Of a stretch of 44,804 nucleotides of DNA, positions 10,287 through 40,201 are shown piece by piece. Source of the stretch: Escherichia phage JLBYU60; the sequence record NC_073052.1, one strand, 5' to 3'. A program made the translations under genes and the position numbers. The notes beneath the pieces are model-generated. The model saw only the letters and a list, made by a program, of their open reading frames with translations. It was not told the origin of the DNA and made no database searches. The stretch's first letter is position 1; each line of letters opens with the position of its first letter.

Positions 10287-10347
10287 TTTGGCGCTATTCT
10301 GCGCGTGCTGTATCATTAAACCGTATATCTAAACAGGAGCGTTCATT

Positions 10348-11073
10348 ATGGGTTATCAACTTCCTAACGGGTCTAGCGTCCAGATTGGGTCCGTACTGGG
10401 CAACGGCATCGCTGTTACGGCAGCTACCAACGCCGCCGCGTCGATCTCCGACCTTACGCAAGGTTGCGTAATTACCTGCGCGGAGTCTCACGGTCTGGTT
10501 GTTGGCGACGTTGTTATGTTCACTAAAACCCCGTGGGTCCGTGCGCTGAACCGCGCGTTCATCGTTGGTAAAGTATCGGGGAACGACGTTACACTGGCGC
10601 GCTTCGATACTCAAGACGCCACCAAATACCCGACCGGTGCTTTCGGCGTAGGCACACCAGGCGAGGTGGTGAAGGTGTCGAGCTTTATCGACTTCCCGTT
10701 TATCACTAACGTCGCCGTGTCTGGTGGCGACCAGCAGACTACTACCTTCCAGCCGTTGCAGGTGAATACCGCGATTAGTCTGAATACCACGAAAAACCCG
10801 TTGGTCCAGACTTACACCTTCACCCATGACGAAGAAGACCCGATCCGCCCGATTCTGGAAGACCTGGACGACACACAGAAAACCACTGTGATTAAGTTCA
10901 CTAACCCGGCAGCGGCAAGCGGCAAAGGTGAGATCCGCATTTACCCGGCTAAGGTGTCTTTCCGGAAGATTCCATCGGCTGAAGTAAACAACGTGGAGAC
11001 GGTGGAGTCCACTCTGACCATGCAATCCGATATGGTTATTTACCGTAAGGACCTGGTTGAAGCGCTGTCGTAA
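10348..11073 (+). CDS. Major tail (tube) protein
   Basis: 241 aa with RBS AGGAG; located directly upstream of the tail assembly chaperone and tape measure genes; followed by strong terminator. Confidence 0.65.
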   Translation: MGYQLPNGSSVQIGSVLGNGIAVTAATNAAASISDLTQGCVITCAESHGLVVGDVVMFTKTPWVRALNRAFIVGKVSGNDVTLARFDTQDATKYPTGAFGVGTPGEVVKVSSFIDFPFITNVAVSGGDQQTTTFQPLQVNTAISLNTTKNPLVQTYTFTHDEEDPIRPILEDLDDTQKTTVIKFTNPAAASGKGEIRIYPAKVSFRKIPSAEVNNVETVESTLTMQSDMVIYRKDLVEALS

Positions 11074-11103
11074 TTTGGTCGCTTAAATAGCGGGTGTTAA
11101 TAT

Positions 11104-11127
11104 GGGGCCAGTACGGCCCCTTTTTTA
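11104..11127 (+). terminator. Rho-independent terminator after major tail protein gene
   Basis: GGGGCC-agtac-GGCCCC followed by TTTTTT. Confidence 0.8.
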
Positions 11128-11142
11128 TTGGAGAATACTACA

Positions 11143-11505
11143 ATGGCAAAAGCACCACTCTTCACACTTGACCCTAAGCCGACCTTTAAGCTGCCGATTG
11201 AGATCCCGCGCCCCGGTGAAAACGAACCGGGAAAAATGACGTTTACCGTGCGCCACCGCCCGATCGACGAATTTTCGCAGACCATGCAGGATACTGAGCG
11301 CAAGTTGTCGGAATATGACGACAATGATCCTGACGGCTTTAACGTTATGGTCGAGGCCATCATGCACGTCGCAGAAGGCTGGAATCTGCCGGACGAATTT
11401 AACGCGGAGAACGTCCGCCGCCTGGTGGTCAACTATCCGCGCGCGTTCGGCGTGTTCCACACGTCGTACTATCTCGAACTGATGGGGTTGCGTGAAAAAA
11501 ACTAA
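11143..11505 (+). CDS. Tail assembly chaperone (gpG-like)
   Basis: 120 aa, acidic; ends at slippery heptamer AAAAAAC (11496-11502) followed 7 nt later by a GC-rich stem; canonical position upstream of tape measure. Confidence 0.7.
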   Translation: MAKAPLFTLDPKPTFKLPIEIPRPGENEPGKMTFTVRHRPIDEFSQTMQDTERKLSEYDDNDPDGFNVMVEAIMHVAEGWNLPDEFNAENVRRLVVNYPRAFGVFHTSYYLELMGLREKN

Positions 11506-11819
11506 TTGAGGCGGCGCTACGCTTTTATGGCCCGCCGCCACCCTCCGAAGATTTAGCCGCGAGTTTATGGGGTGCGGCCCCCGAAGATGTTTGTCCGCCT
11601 GTTGCGCTATGGCCCGACAACGCGAAGGTAGTCGCAGTCTTCACAGATTGCTCCACGCAATGGCGCACCGGTTTTGGTGGCGCATACGGCATCGACTACG
11701 GCGTGCTGGAGTGGTTATTTAAGATGCACGGTATCGAAAACGAGCAGCGCGCGTTTAAAGATATCAAGCTAATGGAGCGAATCGCGCTTGATGAGATGGC
11801 GCAGCAGAACCCCGCATAA
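11143..11819 (+). CDS. Tail assembly chaperone frameshift product (gpGT-like, -1 PRF)
   Basis: -1 frame after the slippery site is open to 11819 without an internal start, encoding ...ALWPDNAKVVAVFTDCSTQWRTGFGG..., typical of gpT-like extensions. Confidence 0.6.
11496..11539 (+). promoter_or_regulatory. Programmed -1 ribosomal frameshift signal
   Basis: Slippery heptamer A_AAA_AAC (11496-11502), 7-nt spacer, then stem GGCGGCG (11510-11516) / CGCCGCC (11533-11539). Confidence 0.6.
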
Positions 11820-11954
11820 TGAAGCGGGACAGGCGGGACGTCCCGTTTTGTCCCGCCTCTGTAAAACTGCATATCTACTCACTTCCACTGCATAAACTCA
11901 AAACGGGACAAGCGGGACGTCCCGTTTTGTCACGCCCTGTAAATATGCATACCT
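11819..11954. repeat. Tandem ~45-bp sub-repeats each containing the 12-bp palindrome CGGGACGTCCCG
   Basis: Two similar units (about 11824-11875 and 11896-11947); palindromes at 11834-11845 and 11913-11924; each unit also forms GGCGGGAC...GTCCCGCC inverted repeats. Confidence 0.7.
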
Positions 11955-12140
11955 ATGCAGATTTCGTGCATAAACCAAACGGGACAGAAAGCGGGACAAA
12001 CACGAGGCGGGACAAAACGGGACAGCACCCCGTCCCCGCCAGTGCTGCCGCGGTTTTCAGCCGATCGGGACAGCGGGACAGCACCCCAGTCTTTCAGACT
12101 AGACGGGGGTCAATGGCCCCCCTCGTCTGAGACTGAATAA
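11955..12140. repeat. Dispersed direct repeat, copy A (CGGGACA iterons plus long imperfect hairpin)
   Basis: About 186 bp, near-identical at both ends to 40016-40201 (shared ...tgcataaaccaaacgggacagaaagcgggacaaaca... and ...gggacagcgggacagcaccccagtctttcagactagacggggg...cccccctcgtctgagactgaataa); lies between chaperone and tape measure genes. Confidence 0.8.
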
Positions 12141-12203
12141 GGTTTGTTTTGAAATCGCTGATACAATATCCATCGGCAACTGCATAAAAAAGGGGACTGC
12201 ATA

Positions 12204-14846
12204 ATGGCAGATCAGGCAGCAGGCATCACGCTAAAGGCTGATGTTGCACAAATCAGAACGGCAAATACTGTGCTGGACTCCTTCGCACAGAAATCCGAGA
12301 ACACAGAAAACAAGGTTAAGAAATTAAACGACACCCTCGGCAAATCCAAAAAGGTGACGAGTGACGCCGCGGGCGGAATGGAAAAGCTGGCAAACGAATC
12401 GCAGCGCGCCGCCGATGGCATGACGAAACAGGAGCGACTCGCCAACAGGTTAGGCATGTCGACTAAAAACCTGGGCTTTGCCTCGCGTAACGCCGCATTC
12501 CAGTTACAGGATATCGCAGTTACGCTTGAGATGGGTATGCCGGTACACCGCGTTATGCTTCAGCAGTTACCGCAGCTAACCGGCGCATTTGGCGGACTAG
12601 GTAACACTCTGCGTTATGTTGCTGGCTTCCTCGGTCCAGTTGGGATCGGCCTTGCTGCGGTAACGGCAACGTTAGGCGTGGGCGTAGCAATTACGTCCCG
12701 AGCAGAGAACCAGGTAGCGGCGCTTAATAAGACGCTGGCACTTTCCGGTAACATTTCCGGCCTGACGGCAAACCAGATCCTGGTGCTATCCGAGAACGCC
12801 GAGCGCATGGGCGGGTCATTCCGCAAGACGCGTGACACAATCCAGGCGCTGGCGGCGGCGGGTGTGAAAGCTGGTGGTGACTTCGGCGCATTGGCTAAGG
12901 TAGTTAATGACTTTGCGAAGGTGTCCAGCCAGCCGATCGAGGATGTGGTAGCGGCGGTGGCGAAGCTGTCAACCGACCCCGTTGGCGGACTGCGTGCGCT
13001 GGCGGATAAGTATCACGTCGTAAACGAAGCGCAGATCCAGCAGGTACAGTCGCTCGTTGATGCGGGTCGTGAGACAGACGCAGTTGCGCTGGCTAACAAA
13101 ACAGCCGCTGCGTCGTTCACCAGCATGACCAATGAGATCAAGGAGAACATGGGTACGCTTGAGCGATCTATGAACGTCGTCACATCGGCAGCCAAATCAA
13201 TGTGGGATGCCATCCTGGATGTGGGCCGCGCGCAGTCCTCCAATGAATCCGAGATGAAAGCGCGCGAATCACTGCAGCGGCTGACCACGGCTTACTATGC
13301 CGAGATGAAAGCGGTAAACGCTGCCGGTGGGGTAATGACTGAAGCGCAGAAAGCACGTATTAACATGCTTTACAGCGAACTGGTCGCCCAGGAAAAAGTG
13401 GTGGCGTCGCTCACCCTGCGTAACCGTGCTGAGCGAGACAACGCCCGCGCCGCAGACGAATCCGCAAAGGCGAACGAGGAGGCCAACCGCACTGCCCGTG
13501 ACCGCGCCGCGTTCGAGAAGGAATACGCCACCAACGCTAAGAAGCGCGCCGACGAGATCGCCCGCCTCAATTTGCTGAATAAGCGCGGCGTTATTGATGA
13601 GAAAGAACTAGCCGAGGCGGTGAAGCAGGTAAACGAGCGGTACAAAGACCCAGCCCCGAAAAAGGCCGCGGCTGTTCGCGTGGATGCCGGTATGAAAATG
13701 CTGGAAGTCGCACGGAGCGAACTGGCCCAGCTTCGAGAATCCGGCAAGCAGATCGAAGCCAACGCGTCTACGCAGACCCGCACGCAACGCGCTCAAGCGG
13801 CCTTAAACAAGCTGATCGCCGACAATGAGCAGTTAATCGCTGCGAGCAAAGAAAGAGCGCTAACGGCAGCAGAAAAGCAGCAATTAGTCGAGTTCGGGCG
13901 CGTGAAGGAAGTCCGCGAGCAGATCGTCGAAGAAGCCAAATTGCTGGATGCGAAAGAGCAGCAGGTTAAGGCGCACGCGCAGATCGATGCCTTCGTTAAG
14001 AACCAGAACGCCGAACTAAAAGCCACCGCGGCGGGCTATGCGCTTTCCACTCGCGAAGCGGCTAACCTGCGCGAAGAATTACAGCTGATTGACCGCCTTA
14101 AGCGCGTTGGTGCTAACGATACCGATATTGACCTGGCGGTGTCTAAGCTGCGCGAAGTGCAGGAAGCACAGACCGGTGCTAACGCCTCGCTATGGGATGG
14201 CTTCAGCCGCGGGCTTAAGGATAGCGTGGATGAAATGGGTAACGGCTATACGCAGATGGCGTCACTCACAAAATTCACGTTCGGCGCTATGCAGGACACG
14301 ATGAACGAGTTTTTCGAGACTGGCAAGCTGAACGCAAAGGATATGGTTAAGTCCATCCTGAGCGAATTAATCAAGCTGGCTACCTCGCAGGCGTTCAAGT
14401 CCATCGTTAGCGCTTTCGGTGGTGACGGCGGCAAAAACGGATTGTTCGGCGCTATCTTTTCCGGCCTCACTAAGAATGCGGACGGCGGAGCGTACGCAGG
14501 GGGCAATCTCGCGGCCTATTCGGGGAAGGTGGTAAGCCAGCCAACCTTTTTCAGTTATGGCGTCCAGGCGTTCGCTAAGGGCGCAGGATTGATGGGCGAG
14601 GCTGGTCCAGAGGCCATCATGCCGCTGAAGCGCGGGCCGGACGGGAAACTGGGCGTTGCCGCGTCTGGCGCAGGCGGTGGTATGGTCGTGACGACTAACG
14701 TTTACACGGGGACCGGTAAAACGGATACCAGTGTCAGCGGGCCGGATCCCCGTACCGCGCAGGCGTTCGGCAAGCAAATCACCGAGGCGGTGAAGGCCGA
14801 GATCGTGAAGGCGACGAAACCGGGTGGTGTACTTTACAAACGATGA
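12204..14846 (+). CDS. Tail tape measure protein
   Basis: 880 aa, long A/Q/E/K-rich coiled-coil central region, glycine-rich C-terminal part; RBS AAGGGGA; lies between chaperone and minor tail genes. Confidence 0.85.
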   Translation: MADQAAGITLKADVAQIRTANTVLDSFAQKSENTENKVKKLNDTLGKSKKVTSDAAGGMEKLANESQRAADGMTKQERLANRLGMSTKNLGFASRNAAFQLQDIAVTLEMGMPVHRVMLQQLPQLTGAFGGLGNTLRYVAGFLGPVGIGLAAVTATLGVGVAITSRAENQVAALNKTLALSGNISGLTANQILVLSENAERMGGSFRKTRDTIQALAAAGVKAGGDFGALAKVVNDFAKVSSQPIEDVVAAVAKLSTDPVGGLRALADKYHVVNEAQIQQVQSLVDAGRETDAVALANKTAAASFTSMTNEIKENMGTLERSMNVVTSAAKSMWDAILDVGRAQSSNESEMKARESLQRLTTAYYAEMKAVNAAGGVMTEAQKARINMLYSELVAQEKVVASLTLRNRAERDNARAADESAKANEEANRTARDRAAFEKEYATNAKKRADEIARLNLLNKRGVIDEKELAEAVKQVNERYKDPAPKKAAAVRVDAGMKMLEVARSELAQLRESGKQIEANASTQTRTQRAQAALNKLIADNEQLIAASKERALTAAEKQQLVEFGRVKEVREQIVEEAKLLDAKEQQVKAHAQIDAFVKNQNAELKATAAGYALSTREAANLREELQLIDRLKRVGANDTDIDLAVSKLREVQEAQTGANASLWDGFSRGLKDSVDEMGNGYTQMASLTKFTFGAMQDTMNEFFETGKLNAKDMVKSILSELIKLATSQAFKSIVSAFGGDGGKNGLFGAIFSGLTKNADGGAYAGGNLAAYSGKVVSQPTFFSYGVQAFAKGAGLMGEAGPEAIMPLKRGPDGKLGVAASGAGGGMVVTTNVYTGTGKTDTSVSGPDPRTAQAFGKQITEAVKAEIVKATKPGGVLYKR

Positions 14847-26958: not shown

Positions 26959-27282
26959 TTACGCATAAAAGTTCGGGTCGCGTGCGACGTCTACCAGGTA
27001 AAGGTTGCTTATGCGGTTGCCGTAGTGCCCTGGAGTGCGCTGGCGGCACACAACGGCGAAGCCTGGAGGGATTGTATTGCCCGTCTCAATAATCCACGCC
27101 ACGCGTGCGCCAGACAGCGTCTTTCCGTTGCATTCGATACGTGTTCCGCCGTCGGCAGTATTGATGTTGCCAATCTTGCAGCCGGTGGACTTCAGACGGA
27201 TGACTCCGGTTTTGCTGTCGTAGGTGAATAGCTGGTTAGTCATTGCGACCGAAAAATCGATGGTTTCGTATGTAGCGTTCAT
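26959..27282 (-). CDS. HNH_3 (AP2-like) family protein, possible small homing endonuclease
   Basis: 107 aa with RBS GAGGAA; architecture NGKT...ARVAWII...IPPGF...GHYGNRISNLYLV parallels HNH_3 endonucleases though the His-Asn core is shortened. Confidence 0.5.
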   Translation of the reverse strand: MNATYETIDFSVAMTNQLFTYDSKTGVIRLKSTGCKIGNINTADGGTRIECNGKTLSGARVAWIIETGNTIPPGFAVVCRQRTPGHYGNRISNLYLVDVARDPNFYA

Positions 27283-27989
27283 TTTAAATTTTCCTCGTTA
27301 ACCGCTATCGCGAAGCCGCGCGGAGTGAGTGAGCGGATTAATTTTGTACGAGCGGATTTACCACCGAGGCGACTATACTGTTTCGAGTACCCTTTTTCAA
27401 CGAAAACAGGTTTCTTCTCTGGCATACGGAAGCCGTTGCCGGTCCATAAGCAAGTCAGCTTCGGATATGAATCGCGGGCGTTGATGTATTCCGGGAAGAG
27501 CGGGTGTACGTCATCCTCCGGCAGATACCCCCCATACTCCCACGGGTCGAACGAGTGATCCGGCTTGCGCCACTGGGTGGAAAGCACACTGCGCGGATTC
27601 TCAATCATATATGGCACTTCGAAGAAGTCACCCAGGTAAGCGGCGATCTTCGCGGTGCGCACCGCCTTAAGCTGAAAGGCTGGGTCTTTTGCACGCTTGC
27701 GCGGGAAAGCTGGCGCACCGCTCACCGCCAGATCCGTGCACGGCGGGAACGCATATATGATATCCGGAGTACCGAAATCGCCATTCATCGCACGGTCTAC
27801 AAAGTCCAGATCGATAAACTCATTGCGATACCGGATTCCGCGACCATAAATCCGGTAGTCAAGGTAAGACCCGTGATCGGCTTCGGAGTAGTTGAAGCAA
27901 TAACACTTATGCCCCATCTCGGCCGCACGCTCAATCATCAAGCCGCTGCCGTCAAACAGTGACCAGATTGTCATTTTAGCAATAGTCAT
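27279..27989 (-). CDS. Compact C5-methyltransferase-like protein (putative DNA cytosine-5 modification enzyme)
   Basis: 236 aa; motif I-like SLFDGSG, motif IV-like DIIYAFPPCTDLAVSGA (catalytic Pro-Cys), motif VI-like YMIENPRS, motif IX-like SLTPRG; no room for a normal target-recognition domain; start ATGA-overlaps the SNF2 helicase stop. Confidence 0.6.
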   Translation of the reverse strand: MTIAKMTIWSLFDGSGLMIERAAEMGHKCYCFNYSEADHGSYLDYRIYGRGIRYRNEFIDLDFVDRAMNGDFGTPDIIYAFPPCTDLAVSGAPAFPRKRAKDPAFQLKAVRTAKIAAYLGDFFEVPYMIENPRSVLSTQWRKPDHSFDPWEYGGYLPEDDVHPLFPEYINARDSYPKLTCLWTGNGFRMPEKKPVFVEKGYSKQYSRLGGKSARTKLIRSLTPRGFAIAVNEENLK

Positions 27990-39954: not shown

Positions 39955-40015
39955 ATTTTGAGTGTTTTTATCAGGTCGTATTGGTTGCCGTGTAGTGTGA
40001 ATATAGTGAATAGTT

Positions 40016-40201
40016 ATGCAGTTTTACTGCATAAACCAAACGGGACAGAAAGCGGGACAAACAAGGGGCGGGACAAAGCGGGACAGCACCCCCGTCCCGC
40101 CCCGGATGGCGCGGCCTGGAGAGGAGCGGGACAGCGGGACAGCACCCCAGTCTTTCAGACTAGACGGGGGTCAGCGGCCCCCCTCGTCTGAGACTGAATA
40201 A
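40016..40201. repeat. Dispersed direct repeat, copy B (CGGGACA iterons plus long imperfect hairpin)
   Basis: Same orientation and length as copy A, 28,061 bp downstream; central ~45 bp diverged; located in the non-coding hub after the primase-helicase gene. Confidence 0.8.

What the first reader, a model, noticed from the sequence alone, without database searches (positions are those of the whole stretch)
11496..11539. Programmed -1 frameshift site in the tail assembly chaperone with downstream stem-loop
Slippery heptamer A_AAA_AAC at the end of the gpG-like gene, a 7-nt spacer and a GC-rich stem (GGCGGCG/CGCCGCC); the -1 frame stays open for 105 codons with no usable start codon and encodes a gpT-like extension. 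The frameshift ORF is invisible to the six-frame ORF track and would be missed by standard gene callers.
Basis: partly seen in the sequence, partly recalled or inferred. Interest (0 to 1): 0.45.

Follow-up and report, generated by a model that had tools for sequence, protein, structure and literature searches.

The report
Tail chaperone G/GT -1 frameshift site
This is the usual programmed -1 ribosomal frameshift that lets a tailed phage make a short and a long tail-assembly chaperone from one gene; the site is real and well conserved but of an already known kind, and it is missing from the six related public genome annotations I inspected.

Summary
The window is a Dhillonvirus-like E. coli siphophage. 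Gene G (11143-11505, Pfam Phage_TAC_4) ends ...GA_A AAA AAC TAA. The heptamer A_AAA_AAC (11496-11502) is in the correct phase. The -1 frame opens only at 11496, after a TGA at 11493-95, and runs 105 codons to TAA 11817-19. It has no start codon before 11703 and encodes a full DUF1799 domain.

Gene order is tail terminator, tube, G, T, tape measure. In 171 of 174 related loci the T frame is -1. In 139 of them AAAAAAC sits directly before the G stop, at G identity down to about 30%. One Ralstonia phage has G_GGA_AAC at the same place. In Dhillonviruses the -1 frame varies mainly at third codon positions (22/10/70).

The hairpin (11510-16 / 11533-39, 7-nt spacer, about -15 kcal/mol) exists. It lies partly within the longest run of invariant synonymous sites (p = 0.006). 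The same register recurs with compensatory changes in some lineages, but it is absent in others and is not clearly more stable than null sequences.

Verdict: a genuine -1 programmed frameshift making a 225-aa G-T fusion. The stimulatory role of the hairpin is plausible but unproven. It is a new member of a known kind.

The parts
10348..11073 (+). Tail tube (major tail) protein gene. Upstream neighbour that fixes the canonical gene order.
   Evidence: Pfam PF08813 Phage_tail_3, E = 1.3e-32. ORF.
11104..11127 (+). Intrinsic-terminator-like hairpin (GGGGCC...GGCCCC) plus a T-run, between the tube gene and G. May lower expression of G and the genes after it.
   Evidence: 6 GC pairs, 5-nt loop, TTTTTTATTG tail. 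Function is inferred.
11143..11505 (+). Gene G: tail assembly chaperone, 120 aa, 0 frame. GGAG ribosome-binding site at 11130-33.
   Evidence: Pfam PF08748 Phage_TAC_4, E = 1.4e-23, full length. phrog_569.
11493..11495 (+). TGA stop in the -1 frame. It limits the G/T frame overlap to 11496-11505.
11496..11502 (+). Slippery heptamer A_AAA_AAC, in phase with gene G.
   Evidence: Identical heptamer directly before the G stop in 139 of 174 related loci. Invariant in 20 distinct Dhillon-like sequences.
11503..11505 (+). TAA stop codon of G, immediately 3' of the heptamer. This adjacency is conserved across the family.
11503..11509 (+). 7-nt spacer (TAATTGA) between the heptamer and the stem.
   Evidence: Invariant among Dhillon-like sequences.
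11510..11539 (+). Hairpin. The lower stem is 11510-16 / 11533-39 (7 GC-rich pairs). A small upper stem is 11521-23 / 11529-31. Candidate frameshift stimulator.
   Evidence: Free energy -15.1 kcal/mol. Minimum-free-energy structure in a short context. The 5' arm lies in the longest run of invariant third codon positions. Pair counts across relatives.
11502..11819 (+). T extension in the -1 frame: 105 sense codons plus TAA. No start codon before GTG at 11703.
   Evidence: Variable sites by codon position are 22/10/70 in this frame.
11568..11798 (+). DUF1799 domain within the -1 extension, with the conserved TQWRxG..G..G(L/I)DY and D(I/L)RxME motifs.
   Evidence: Pfam PF08809, E = 2.7e-21, profile positions 1-80 of 80. 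Alignment A5.
11143..11819 (+). Predicted G-T fusion product of 225 aa: G residues 1-120 joined to the 105 codons of the -1 frame. The junction reads ...REKN|LIEAALR if both tRNAs slip together, or ...REKK|LIEAALR if the A site is re-read or the mRNA gains an extra A.
   Evidence: plus inference from the standard slippage model. phrog_17368 covers both halves.
12204..14846 (+). Tape measure protein gene, the downstream partner of the chaperones.
   Evidence: Pfam PF06791 TMP_2, E = 2.3e-43, and PF09718.

Best explanation
Ribosomes translating the tail assembly chaperone gene G (11143-11505) mostly terminate at TAA 11503-05 and release a 120-aa chaperone.

A minority slip back one nucleotide on A_AAA_AAC (11496-11502). 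tRNA-Lys moves from AAA to AAA and tRNA-Asn from AAC to AAA. These ribosomes continue in the -1 frame through 105 further codons to TAA 11817-19. The product is a 225-aa G-T fusion whose C-terminal part is a DUF1799 domain.

By analogy with lambda gpG/gpGT, the G parts of both proteins coat the tape measure protein (gene at 12204). The rarer T domain recruits the tail tube protein (gene at 10348). The intrinsic slip rate therefore sets the G:GT ratio needed for tail assembly.

The GC-rich hairpin 7 nt downstream (11510-11539) probably raises the efficiency of a heptamer that is only weakly shifty in E. coli. The adjacent stop codon may also contribute.

Shown here: sequence anatomy, family assignment, conservation, and coding constraint on the -1 frame.
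Inferred: the slip itself, its rate, the assembly role, and the stimulatory roles of the hairpin and the stop codon.
For: - Anatomy: the heptamer is in phase, and the overlap between the two frames is only 11496-11505. There is no start codon in the -1 frame before codon 68.
- Families: G is PF08748 Phage_TAC_4. The extension is a complete PF08809 DUF1799 domain that starts 45 codons upstream of the first possible start codon. phrog_17368 matches G at positions 1-107 and the extension at 149-212.
- Gene order: tail terminator, tube, G, T, tape measure.
- Breadth: tblastn of the fusion finds 1159 phage records. In 790 of them one place covers at least 80% of the fusion query, and all such records listed show two pieces, that is, two frames.
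- Conservation: of 174 loci, 171 have T in the -1 frame and 139 have AAAAAAC directly before the G stop. The preceding codon varies (GAA, GTA, ACA, GCA) but its third base is always A. A Ralstonia phage has G_GGA_AAC at the same position.
- Coding constraint: in 20 distinct Dhillon-like sequences, variable sites by codon position in the -1 frame are 22/10/70 of 105 each.
- Nucleotide constraint: the longest run of invariant third positions in G-T is 9 sites, at 11493-11516. It covers the heptamer, the spacer and the 5' arm. Permutation p = 0.006.
- Precedent in the family: a 35%-identical homologue in Klebsiella phage Sweeny is deposited as 'tail assembly chaperone frameshift product', a joined CDS.
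- Literature: the lambda G:GT ratio of about 30:1 is needed for tail assembly, and A_AAA_AAC is shift-prone but weaker than A_AAA_AAG in E. coli (PMC5009743). An A_AAA_AAC IS cluster is a proven -1 frameshift case (PMC4066793). AAAAAAC next to the chaperone stop was noted in Acinetobacter phage Loki (PMC5313236). Tail chaperone clusters gave 6-7% frameshifting in reporter assays (PMC3711429).
Against: - No protein-level or reporter evidence exists for this phage or genus in anything I could search.
- A_AAA_AAC is a comparatively poor slip site in E. coli (PMC5009743).
- The heptamer alone is not over-represented in the window.
- The hairpin is not more stable than dinucleotide shuffles (z = -0.76).
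- Against synonymous recoding, the hairpin is only marginally more stable (p about 0.05 in a short context, 0.57 in a longer one).
- RNAalifold finds no family-wide consensus structure.
- Several clades that keep the heptamer lack any stable helix.
- Three related contigs carry A5C instead of A6C.
Confidence: 0.9

Rival explanations
1. Transcriptional slippage. RNA polymerase stutters on the A7 run (11495-11501) and inserts one extra A in a fraction of mRNAs. Standard translation of those mRNAs then gives the G-T fusion, with a ...REKK-LIEAALR junction.
For: The window has seven consecutive A residues. One inserted A would put the T frame in phase (reasoning). Three related contigs differ by one A in this run, which shows that its length is labile or error-prone.
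Against: The known transcriptional slippage sites that I recall use runs of about 9 or more (my own recollection of the field reviewed in PMC5009743; I did not extract that figure from the paper). Here the run is 7. It is 6 in the Tlsvirus-like clades and 4 in Webervirus. The Ralstonia site is G4A3. What is conserved is a phased X_XXY_YYZ pattern placed exactly before the stop, even where the frame overlap is up to 541 nt long. Lambda G-T is reported to be translational (PMC5009743).
Confidence: 0.05
2. No recoding. The T region is translated on its own, either from the internal GTG at 11703 or ATG at 11724 (as the deposited 38-aa 'DUF1799' ORFs imply), or by termination-reinitiation at a non-canonical codon near the G stop.
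For: Public records call a 38-aa ORF at the position equivalent to 11703-11819. Gene callers found a 90-aa DUF1799 ORF with its own ATG in a 58%-identical relative.
Against: The DUF1799 profile match (positions 1-80 of 80) begins 45 codons upstream of GTG 11703, so that ORF would carry less than half of the domain. Purifying selection covers all 105 codons, including the 67 upstream of any start. No start-like codon is conserved after the stop: CTA ATT here, but CTA AAA, CTG ATA and CTA ACA in relatives. No Shine-Dalgarno sequence plus start pair is present, in contrast to an ordinary ATGA gene overlap elsewhere in the window.
Confidence: 0.03
3. The frameshift is real, but the hairpin 11510-11539 is a by-product of coding rather than a stimulator. 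Its arms are the codons for Glu-Ala-Ala (GAG GCG GCG) and Pro-Pro-Pro (CCG CCG CC), written in the commonest codons.
For: - GCG and CCG are the preferred Ala and Pro codons in this phage (0.37 and 0.54).
- Stability is not significant against shuffles and only borderline against synonymous recoding.
- RNAalifold gives no consensus structure.
- The L031, Guelphvirus and L139 clades lack a stable helix. L107 and L119 break pairs by synonymous changes without compensation, yet keep the heptamer.
- An IS cluster using A_AAA_AAC shifts without any known stimulator (PMC4066793).
Against: - The five third-position G residues needed for pairing have a joint codon-usage probability of 0.019. All five are invariant, while 66% of third positions vary.
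- The helix keeps the same register (+8..+14 / +31..+37) with compensatory changes in the Tlsvirus-like clade (GGCGGUUU / AAACCGCC) and in the L031 clade. The Ralstonia phage keeps the first five pairs (GGCGG / CCGCC) unchanged.
- 72.9% of cells are paired against 60.5% in shuffles (0 of 500 shuffles as high) and 30-52% in slid controls.
- The 7-nt spacer is in the usual range for such stimulators (my own knowledge).
Confidence: 0.4

Closest known systems
Lambda gpG / gpGT programmed -1 frameshift, and the conserved tail-chaperone frameshift of dsDNA tailed phages (Levin et al. 1993; Xu, Hendrix & Duda 2004, 2013, as reviewed in PMC5009743)
   Same: Two reading frames lie between the major tail and tape measure genes. 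The downstream frame is -1 and has no start of its own. A canonical X_XXY_YYZ heptamer sits at the end of the upstream gene. The expected output is a short abundant chaperone and a rare long fusion.
   Different: - The slip site is A_AAA_AAC, not G_GGA_AAG. It lies directly against the stop codon, whereas the lambda site lies several codons before the G stop.
- The proteins belong to other families (Phage_TAC_4 plus DUF1799), with no detectable homology to lambda G or T (hhalign probability below 1%).
- A candidate 3' hairpin is present.
- A 385-nt repeat-filled gap separates T from the tape measure gene, whereas in lambda T overlaps H.
Tail assembly chaperone frameshift annotated in Klebsiella phage Sweeny (Webervirus, Drexlerviridae; MK931443, CPT_Sweeny_039/040)
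   Same: Homologous G and T proteins (about 35% identity), the same gene order, and the same -1 relation. It is deposited as a joined 'frameshift product' CDS.
   Different: Sweeny and its clade end G with GCA_AAA_GTT_TAA, an A_AAA_G type site and not a full heptamer. Its helix, GGGCUG / CAGCCU, starts closer to the G stop codon.
AAAAAAC next to the chaperone stop codon in Acinetobacter phage Loki gp12/gp13 (PMC5313236), and A_AAA_AAC in the g-t genes of haloarchaeal virus HCTV-2 (PMC5009743)
   Same: The same heptamer is used for the same purpose. [quoted passage not shown]
   Different: The phages are unrelated, and I did not compare the protein families. Those cases are also predictions from sequence.
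IS-element cluster using A_AAA_AAC, listed as a proven -1 frameshift case in E. coli (Sharma et al. 2014, PMC4066793). From memory this is probably IS1 InsAB'; I did not check that.
   Same: The same A6C heptamer works in the same host at low efficiency, without an established stimulator.
   Different: It is a transposase, not a structural chaperone, and has no relation in sequence or gene context.

Membership tests
Conserved tailed-phage tail assembly chaperone G/GT frameshift | The pair of reading frames lies between the major tail (tube) gene and the tape measure gene. | tested here: met
   PF08813 tube at 10348-11073, G at 11143-11505, T to 11819, and PF06791/PF09718 tape measure at 12204-14846.
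Conserved tailed-phage tail assembly chaperone G/GT frameshift | The second frame is -1 relative to the first, overlaps its 3' end, and has no initiation codon of its own at its start. | tested here: met
   The -1 frame is open over 11496-11816. The first start codon is at 11703. No ORF of 40 aa or more is listed in that frame.
Conserved tailed-phage tail assembly chaperone G/GT frameshift | A canonical slippery sequence, in the 0-frame phase, lies within the overlap. | tested here: met
   A_AAA_AAC at 11496-11502 fills the whole 10-nt overlap together with the stop codon.
Conserved tailed-phage tail assembly chaperone G/GT frameshift | The slip site and the frame arrangement are conserved among diverged relatives, and the downstream frame evolves as coding sequence. 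| tested here: met
   171 of 174 loci have T in the -1 frame. 139 have AAAAAAC before the stop and 1 has GGGAAAC. Codon-position variability is 22/10/70.
Conserved tailed-phage tail assembly chaperone G/GT frameshift | The fusion protein is made at a low fixed ratio and is required for tail assembly. | not testable with these tools
   Needs mass spectrometry, western blot, reporter assays and phage genetics.
Pfam PF08748 Phage_TAC_4 (G) and PF08809 DUF1799 (T) | Score above the Pfam gathering threshold over the full profile. | tested here: met
   G: 83.9 bits against a cut-off of 21.1, profile positions 1-124 of 124. T: 76 bits against a cut-off of 26, profile positions 1-80 of 80.
Lambda gpG and gpT sequence families | Detectable sequence or profile homology to lambda G and T. 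| tested here: not met
   hhalign of A1 against lambda G gives probability 0.05%. A5 against lambda T gives 0.65%, E = 0.088. No other Pfam hit at E up to 1. The resemblance is positional and functional only.
-1 frameshift sites with a 3' stimulatory stem-loop (dnaX and IS3 type) | A stable helix starts about 5-9 nt after the heptamer. | tested here: met
   7-nt spacer. 7-bp GC-rich stem plus a 3-bp upper stem, -15.1 to -16.6 kcal/mol.
-1 frameshift sites with a 3' stimulatory stem-loop (dnaX and IS3 type) | The structure is maintained by selection: covariation, excess stability, and suppressed synonymous change. | tested here: inconclusive
   For: synonymous-site run p = 0.006, and pair counts above both shuffled and slid controls. 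Against: z = -0.76, synonymous recoding p = 0.05-0.57, no RNAalifold consensus, and no helix in several clades.
-1 frameshift sites with a 3' stimulatory stem-loop (dnaX and IS3 type) | The helix raises frameshift efficiency. | not testable with these tools
   Needs reporter assays with disruptive and compensatory mutants.
Transcriptional slippage sites | A long homopolymer run (typically 9 or more A or T), conserved as a run irrespective of phase. | tested here: not met
   The run is A7 here. Relatives have A6, A4 or G4A3, while the phased heptamer pattern is conserved.

The most novel reading that the evidence does not exclude
In the whole Phage_TAC_4/DUF1799 family, what is selected may be the heptamer abutting the stop codon rather than a heptamer alone. 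The shift would then occur largely as a termination-coupled slip of the P-site tRNA: tRNA-Asn on AAC re-pairs to AAA while the slowly decoded stop codon occupies the A site. Lineage-specific 3' hairpins would tune the rate. That would make this family a natural bacterial system in which stop-codon context sets a -1 frameshift ratio. My evidence shows the near-invariant adjacency (170 of 174 loci have a slip site immediately before the stop) but cannot tell this mechanism apart from classical tandem slippage.
Probability: 0.15. Interest if true: 0.4.

Novelty: new member of a known kind. Interest (0 to 1): 0.2.

Why it matters
**Annotation.** The 225-aa G-T fusion is almost certainly an essential tail assembly protein. 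It is absent from the six Dhillonvirus GenBank/RefSeq records I inspected. Those records instead call a meaningless 38-aa fragment, or label the chaperone 'tape measure protein'. Adding the joined CDS would correct the proteome of a genus of E. coli phages that is often isolated for therapy and defence-system studies. Tail assembly chaperones have recently been reported as triggers of bacterial Avs immune sensors (bioRxiv 10.64898/2026.01.04.697583).

**Mechanism.** The family offers more than 100 natural sequence variants of one A_AAA_AAC-plus-stop cassette, some with and some without a 3' hairpin. That is a convenient comparative set for asking what tunes weak frameshift sites in E. coli.

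Beyond these two points the finding is ordinary.

Tried and rejected
**Searches and comparisons that gave nothing useful**
- A locus search with a broad 8-sequence G alignment failed because no conserved stretch was found. Narrower alignments worked.
- A protein search with the fusion returned only 3 hits and no natural in-frame G-T fusion.
- No relative with a solved structure and no NCBIfam model.
- hhalign against lambda G and T found no homology.
- An Rfam scan of 11000-12300 gave only chance-level hits.
- RNAalifold on 76 sequences gave no consensus structure.
- Literature searches for a described Dhillonvirus or HK578 frameshift found none. A search for DUF1799 found only a gene table.

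**Ideas considered and set aside**
- An upstream Shine-Dalgarno-like stimulator: the GGGG at 11483-86 varies at synonymous positions among close relatives, so I rejected it.
- A pseudoknot between the hairpin loop and downstream sequence: I checked by eye only and saw no complement.
- The other in-phase heptamer followed by a long open -1 frame (27285-27291, minus strand): it is an ordinary ATGA gene overlap with a Shine-Dalgarno sequence.

**Not attempted**
- Structure prediction. The alignments I had contain sequences the tool does not accept, and the result would not change the verdict.
Full report
**What the window is.** Megablast of 10300-12300 against GenBank phages finds 157 records at 90-99% identity. 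Nearly all are Escherichia phages of the genus Dhillonvirus, and the best hit is SM_A8 at 98.8%. The window is therefore a Dhillonvirus-like siphophage genome.

**Checking the observation.** The sequence reads ...CTG ATG GGG TTG CGT GAA AAA AAC TAA TTG AGG CGG CG....
- Gene G runs from 11143 to 11505 and encodes 120 aa. Its last codons are GAA AAA AAC TAA, so AAAAAAC at 11496-11502 is in the X_XXY_YYZ phase.
- The -1 frame has a TGA at 11493-95. It is then open for 105 sense codons (11502-11816) up to TAA at 11817-19.
- The first ATG, GTG or TTG in that frame is GTG at 11703. No ORF of 40 aa or more is listed in that frame.
- The spacer TAATTGA (11503-09) is 7 nt. GGCGGCG (11510-16) and CGCCGCC (11533-39) are exact complements.

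All elements of the observation are therefore present at the stated coordinates. The two frames overlap only over 11496-11505, so any G-to-T transition has to happen on the heptamer itself.

**Is it more than chance?** The heptamer alone is not unusual. It occurs 4 times in the window against 8.6 expected. About 14% of codon positions are followed by 105 or more open codons. The only other in-phase heptamers followed by a long open -1 frame (two overlapping ones, AAATTTA and TTTAAAA, at about 27282-27291 on the minus strand) sit at an ordinary ATGA overlap of two genes, with a Shine-Dalgarno sequence and an ATG. That case is a useful contrast, because at G/T there is neither. The weight of evidence comes from identity, context and conservation.

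**Identity and context.**
- G matches Pfam PF08748 Phage_TAC_4 over its full length (E = 1.4e-23).
- The -1 extension matches PF08809 DUF1799 over the whole profile (positions 1-80 of 80, E = 2.7e-21). The match begins at residue 24 of the extension, 45 codons upstream of the first possible start codon.
- One PHROG family, phrog_17368 (213 positions), matches G at positions 1-107 and the extension at 149-212. That family therefore contains joined G-T sequences.
- The flanking genes are tail terminator (PF13554), tail tube (PF08813) and tape measure (PF06791 plus PF09718). This is the canonical order.

**Conservation.** tblastn of the predicted fusion finds 1159 phage records. In 790 of them one place covers at least 80% of the fusion query, and all such records listed show two pieces, that is, two frames. 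They include Dhillonvirus, many Drexlerviridae, an Aeromonas Yanchengvirus and Ralstonia phages.

I collected 174 loci: the window, GenBank records, Logan contigs and IMG/VR contigs. For each I located the G stop and the T frame.
- T is in the -1 frame in 171 loci.
- The seven bases before the G stop are AAAAAAC in 139 loci, with G identity to the window down to about 30%.
- They are AAAAG(TT/TC/CC) in 31 loci (Webervirus clade) and GGGAAAC in one Ralstonia phage.
- The codon before the heptamer changes (GAA, GTA, ACA, GCA), but its third base is always A. Neighbouring Arg and Gly codons vary freely at synonymous positions. The constraint is therefore on the nucleotides.
- Three Tlsvirus-like contigs have A5C instead of A6C. 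One of them also has frame breaks elsewhere in G and T, so these look like homopolymer-length errors, although I cannot prove that.

**Coding constraint on the -1 frame.** Among 20 distinct Dhillon-like G-T sequences, variable sites fall 10/6/79 by codon position in G. Over the T region in the -1 frame they fall 22/10/70 of 105 each. The -1 frame is under purifying selection along its whole length, including the 67 codons that lie before any start codon. An alignment of T domains from 14 lineages shows invariant T, Q, W, G, G and Y residues in the TQWRxG..G..G(L/I)DY motif, and a conserved D(I/L)RxME motif.

**The hairpin.**

Evidence for a selected structure:
- The five third-position G residues it needs (11510, 11513, 11516, 11534, 11537) have a joint probability of 0.019 from this phage's codon usage. 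All five are invariant among Dhillon-like sequences, while 66% of third positions vary.
- The longest run of invariant third positions in the whole G-T region is 9 sites, at 11493-11516. It spans the last Arg codon (CGT), the heptamer, the spacer and the 5' arm. Permutation p = 0.006.
- On 76 distinct, ungapped homologous sequences, 72.9% of cells form pairs in the helix in this register. Column shuffles give 60.5% (0 of 500 as high) and slid controls give 30-52%. Four of the seven pairs show changes on both sides.
- The minimum-free-energy helix starts at +8 in the window's 58-62% identical relatives (-20 to -22 kcal/mol), in the Tlsvirus-like clade (GGCGGUUU / AAACCGCC, -15.5) and in the Ralstonia phage (-14.1).

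Evidence against:
- The fold of 11496-11580 is no more stable than dinucleotide shuffles (z = -0.76), and in that context it uses a shifted register.
- Against synonymous recoding the p-value is 0.05 in a short context and 0.57 in a longer one.
- RNAalifold finds no family-wide consensus structure.
- The large L031 clade, Guelphvirus, L107/L119 and L139 keep the heptamer but have no stable helix (-5 to -9 kcal/mol). L107 and L119 break pairs by synonymous changes without compensation.
- The double changes represent only a few evolutionary events, and the structure was derived from the window's own sequence. Both facts inflate the pair-count measures.

I therefore rate the hairpin as a plausible, lineage-specific stimulator (about 0.6), not an established one. 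No upstream Shine-Dalgarno-like element is supported, because synonymous positions upstream of 11493 vary.

**Mechanism.** The best explanation is classical -1 programmed ribosomal frameshifting. With tRNA-Lys on AAA and tRNA-Asn on AAC, both slip back one base to AAA/AAA. Decoding resumes at CUA (11502). The result is a 225-aa fusion with the junction ...REKN-LIEAALR.

Published context:
- Lambda needs a gpG:gpGT ratio of about 30:1.
- A_AAA_AAC is shift-prone but much weaker than A_AAA_AAG in E. coli (PMC5009743). A weak site suits a low fixed ratio, and it leaves room for a stimulator.
- An IS cluster using A_AAA_AAC is a proven -1 frameshift case without a known stimulator (PMC4066793).
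- Tail chaperone clusters gave 6-7% frameshifting in reporter assays (PMC3711429).
- The same 'AAAAAAC adjacent to the stop' arrangement was pointed out in Acinetobacter phage Loki (PMC5313236).

The slip itself, its rate and the assembly role are inferred, not shown.

**Rivals.**
- Transcriptional slippage on the A7 run could give the same fusion, but with Lys at the junction. It is disfavoured because relatives conserve a phased heptamer with runs of only 6, 4 or 3 A, placed exactly before the stop even where the frame overlap is up to 541 nt long.
- Independent initiation of T is disfavoured. The domain and the purifying selection both start far upstream of any start codon, and no start-like codon is conserved after the stop.

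**Comparison with what is known.** In mechanism and context this is the conserved tail-chaperone frameshift of tailed phages. Membership of that functional class is met on every feature I could test.

It is not a sequence homologue of lambda G or T. hhalign probabilities are 0.05% and 0.65% (lambda genes). 'gpG-like' and 'gpT-like' should therefore be read as positional analogy.

Within its own protein family the frameshift has already been annotated at least once: Klebsiella phage Sweeny carries a joined CDS labelled 'frameshift product'. The six Dhillonvirus records I opened do not annotate it. They call the chaperone plus a 38-aa or 76-aa fragment, or nothing at all. I found no paper that describes it for this genus.

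**Verdict.** Novelty is low: a new member of a known kind, and in practice an annotation gap. Interest 0.2. The most novel reading still open is that the near-universal heptamer-next-to-stop arrangement reflects a termination-coupled P-site slip, tuned by lineage-specific hairpins (probability about 0.15).

Noticed in passing
window 11820-12203, and window 40007-40201: The 385-nt gap between the T stop and the tape measure ATG is filled with repeats.
- 13 of the window's 30 CGGGAC hexamers lie in 11825-12079. Another 7 lie in 40041-40140.
- A ~79-nt unit is locally duplicated: 11822-11918 aligns with 11901-11997 at 79% identity.
- A 195-nt dispersed direct repeat, 11946-12140 against 40007-40201, is 87% identical. 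It ends in a strong GC hairpin (AGACGGGGGTCA..GGCCCCCCTCGTCT).

In relatives outside Dhillonvirus, T and the tape measure gene are only about 35-40 nt apart, so this looks like a genus-specific insertion. It could be a regulatory DNA array or a structured RNA. There is no Rfam match. Some public records call a 103-aa ORF or a 'repeat_region' here.
   Followed up: partly
window 11104-11127: A strong intrinsic-terminator-like hairpin (GGGGCC AGTAC GGCCCC followed by TTTTTT) lies between the tail tube gene stop and the chaperone gene start. It could reduce expression of the chaperone and tape measure genes relative to the tube protein.
   Followed up: no
L123, L135, L143 (IMG/VR Tlsvirus-like contigs), at the G stop: Three related contigs have GTAAAAACTAA, one A fewer than the usual A6C. 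This puts T in the +1 frame, or in the same frame as the aberrant G match in L143. L123 also has frame breaks inside G and T. These are probably homopolymer sequencing errors, but genuine length variation of the run is not excluded.
   Followed up: partly
L010 and L144-L173 (Webervirus clade): This clade ends G with GCA_AAA_GTT/GTC/GCC_TAA, an A_AAA_G type site rather than a full heptamer. It is followed by a GGGCUG / CAGCCU helix that starts closer to the stop codon. The Sweeny record annotates it as a frameshift product.
   Followed up: partly
Public records for Envy, EE09, jat, JLBYU37, Kenya-K19 and Opt212 (L001-L004, L174, L175): Annotation problems. The chaperone is named 'tail length tape measure protein', following the PHROG label, in RefSeq Envy. 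A 38-aa ORF starting at the GTG equivalent to 11703 is called 'DUF1799 domain-containing protein' or 'hypothetical protein'. None of the six records has the joined CDS.
   Followed up: yes
window 27279-27291, minus strand: The in-phase heptamers AAATTTA and TTTAAAA are followed by a 108-codon open -1 frame. This is an ordinary ATGA overlap of two genes with a GAGGAAAA Shine-Dalgarno sequence, not a frameshift site.
   Followed up: yes
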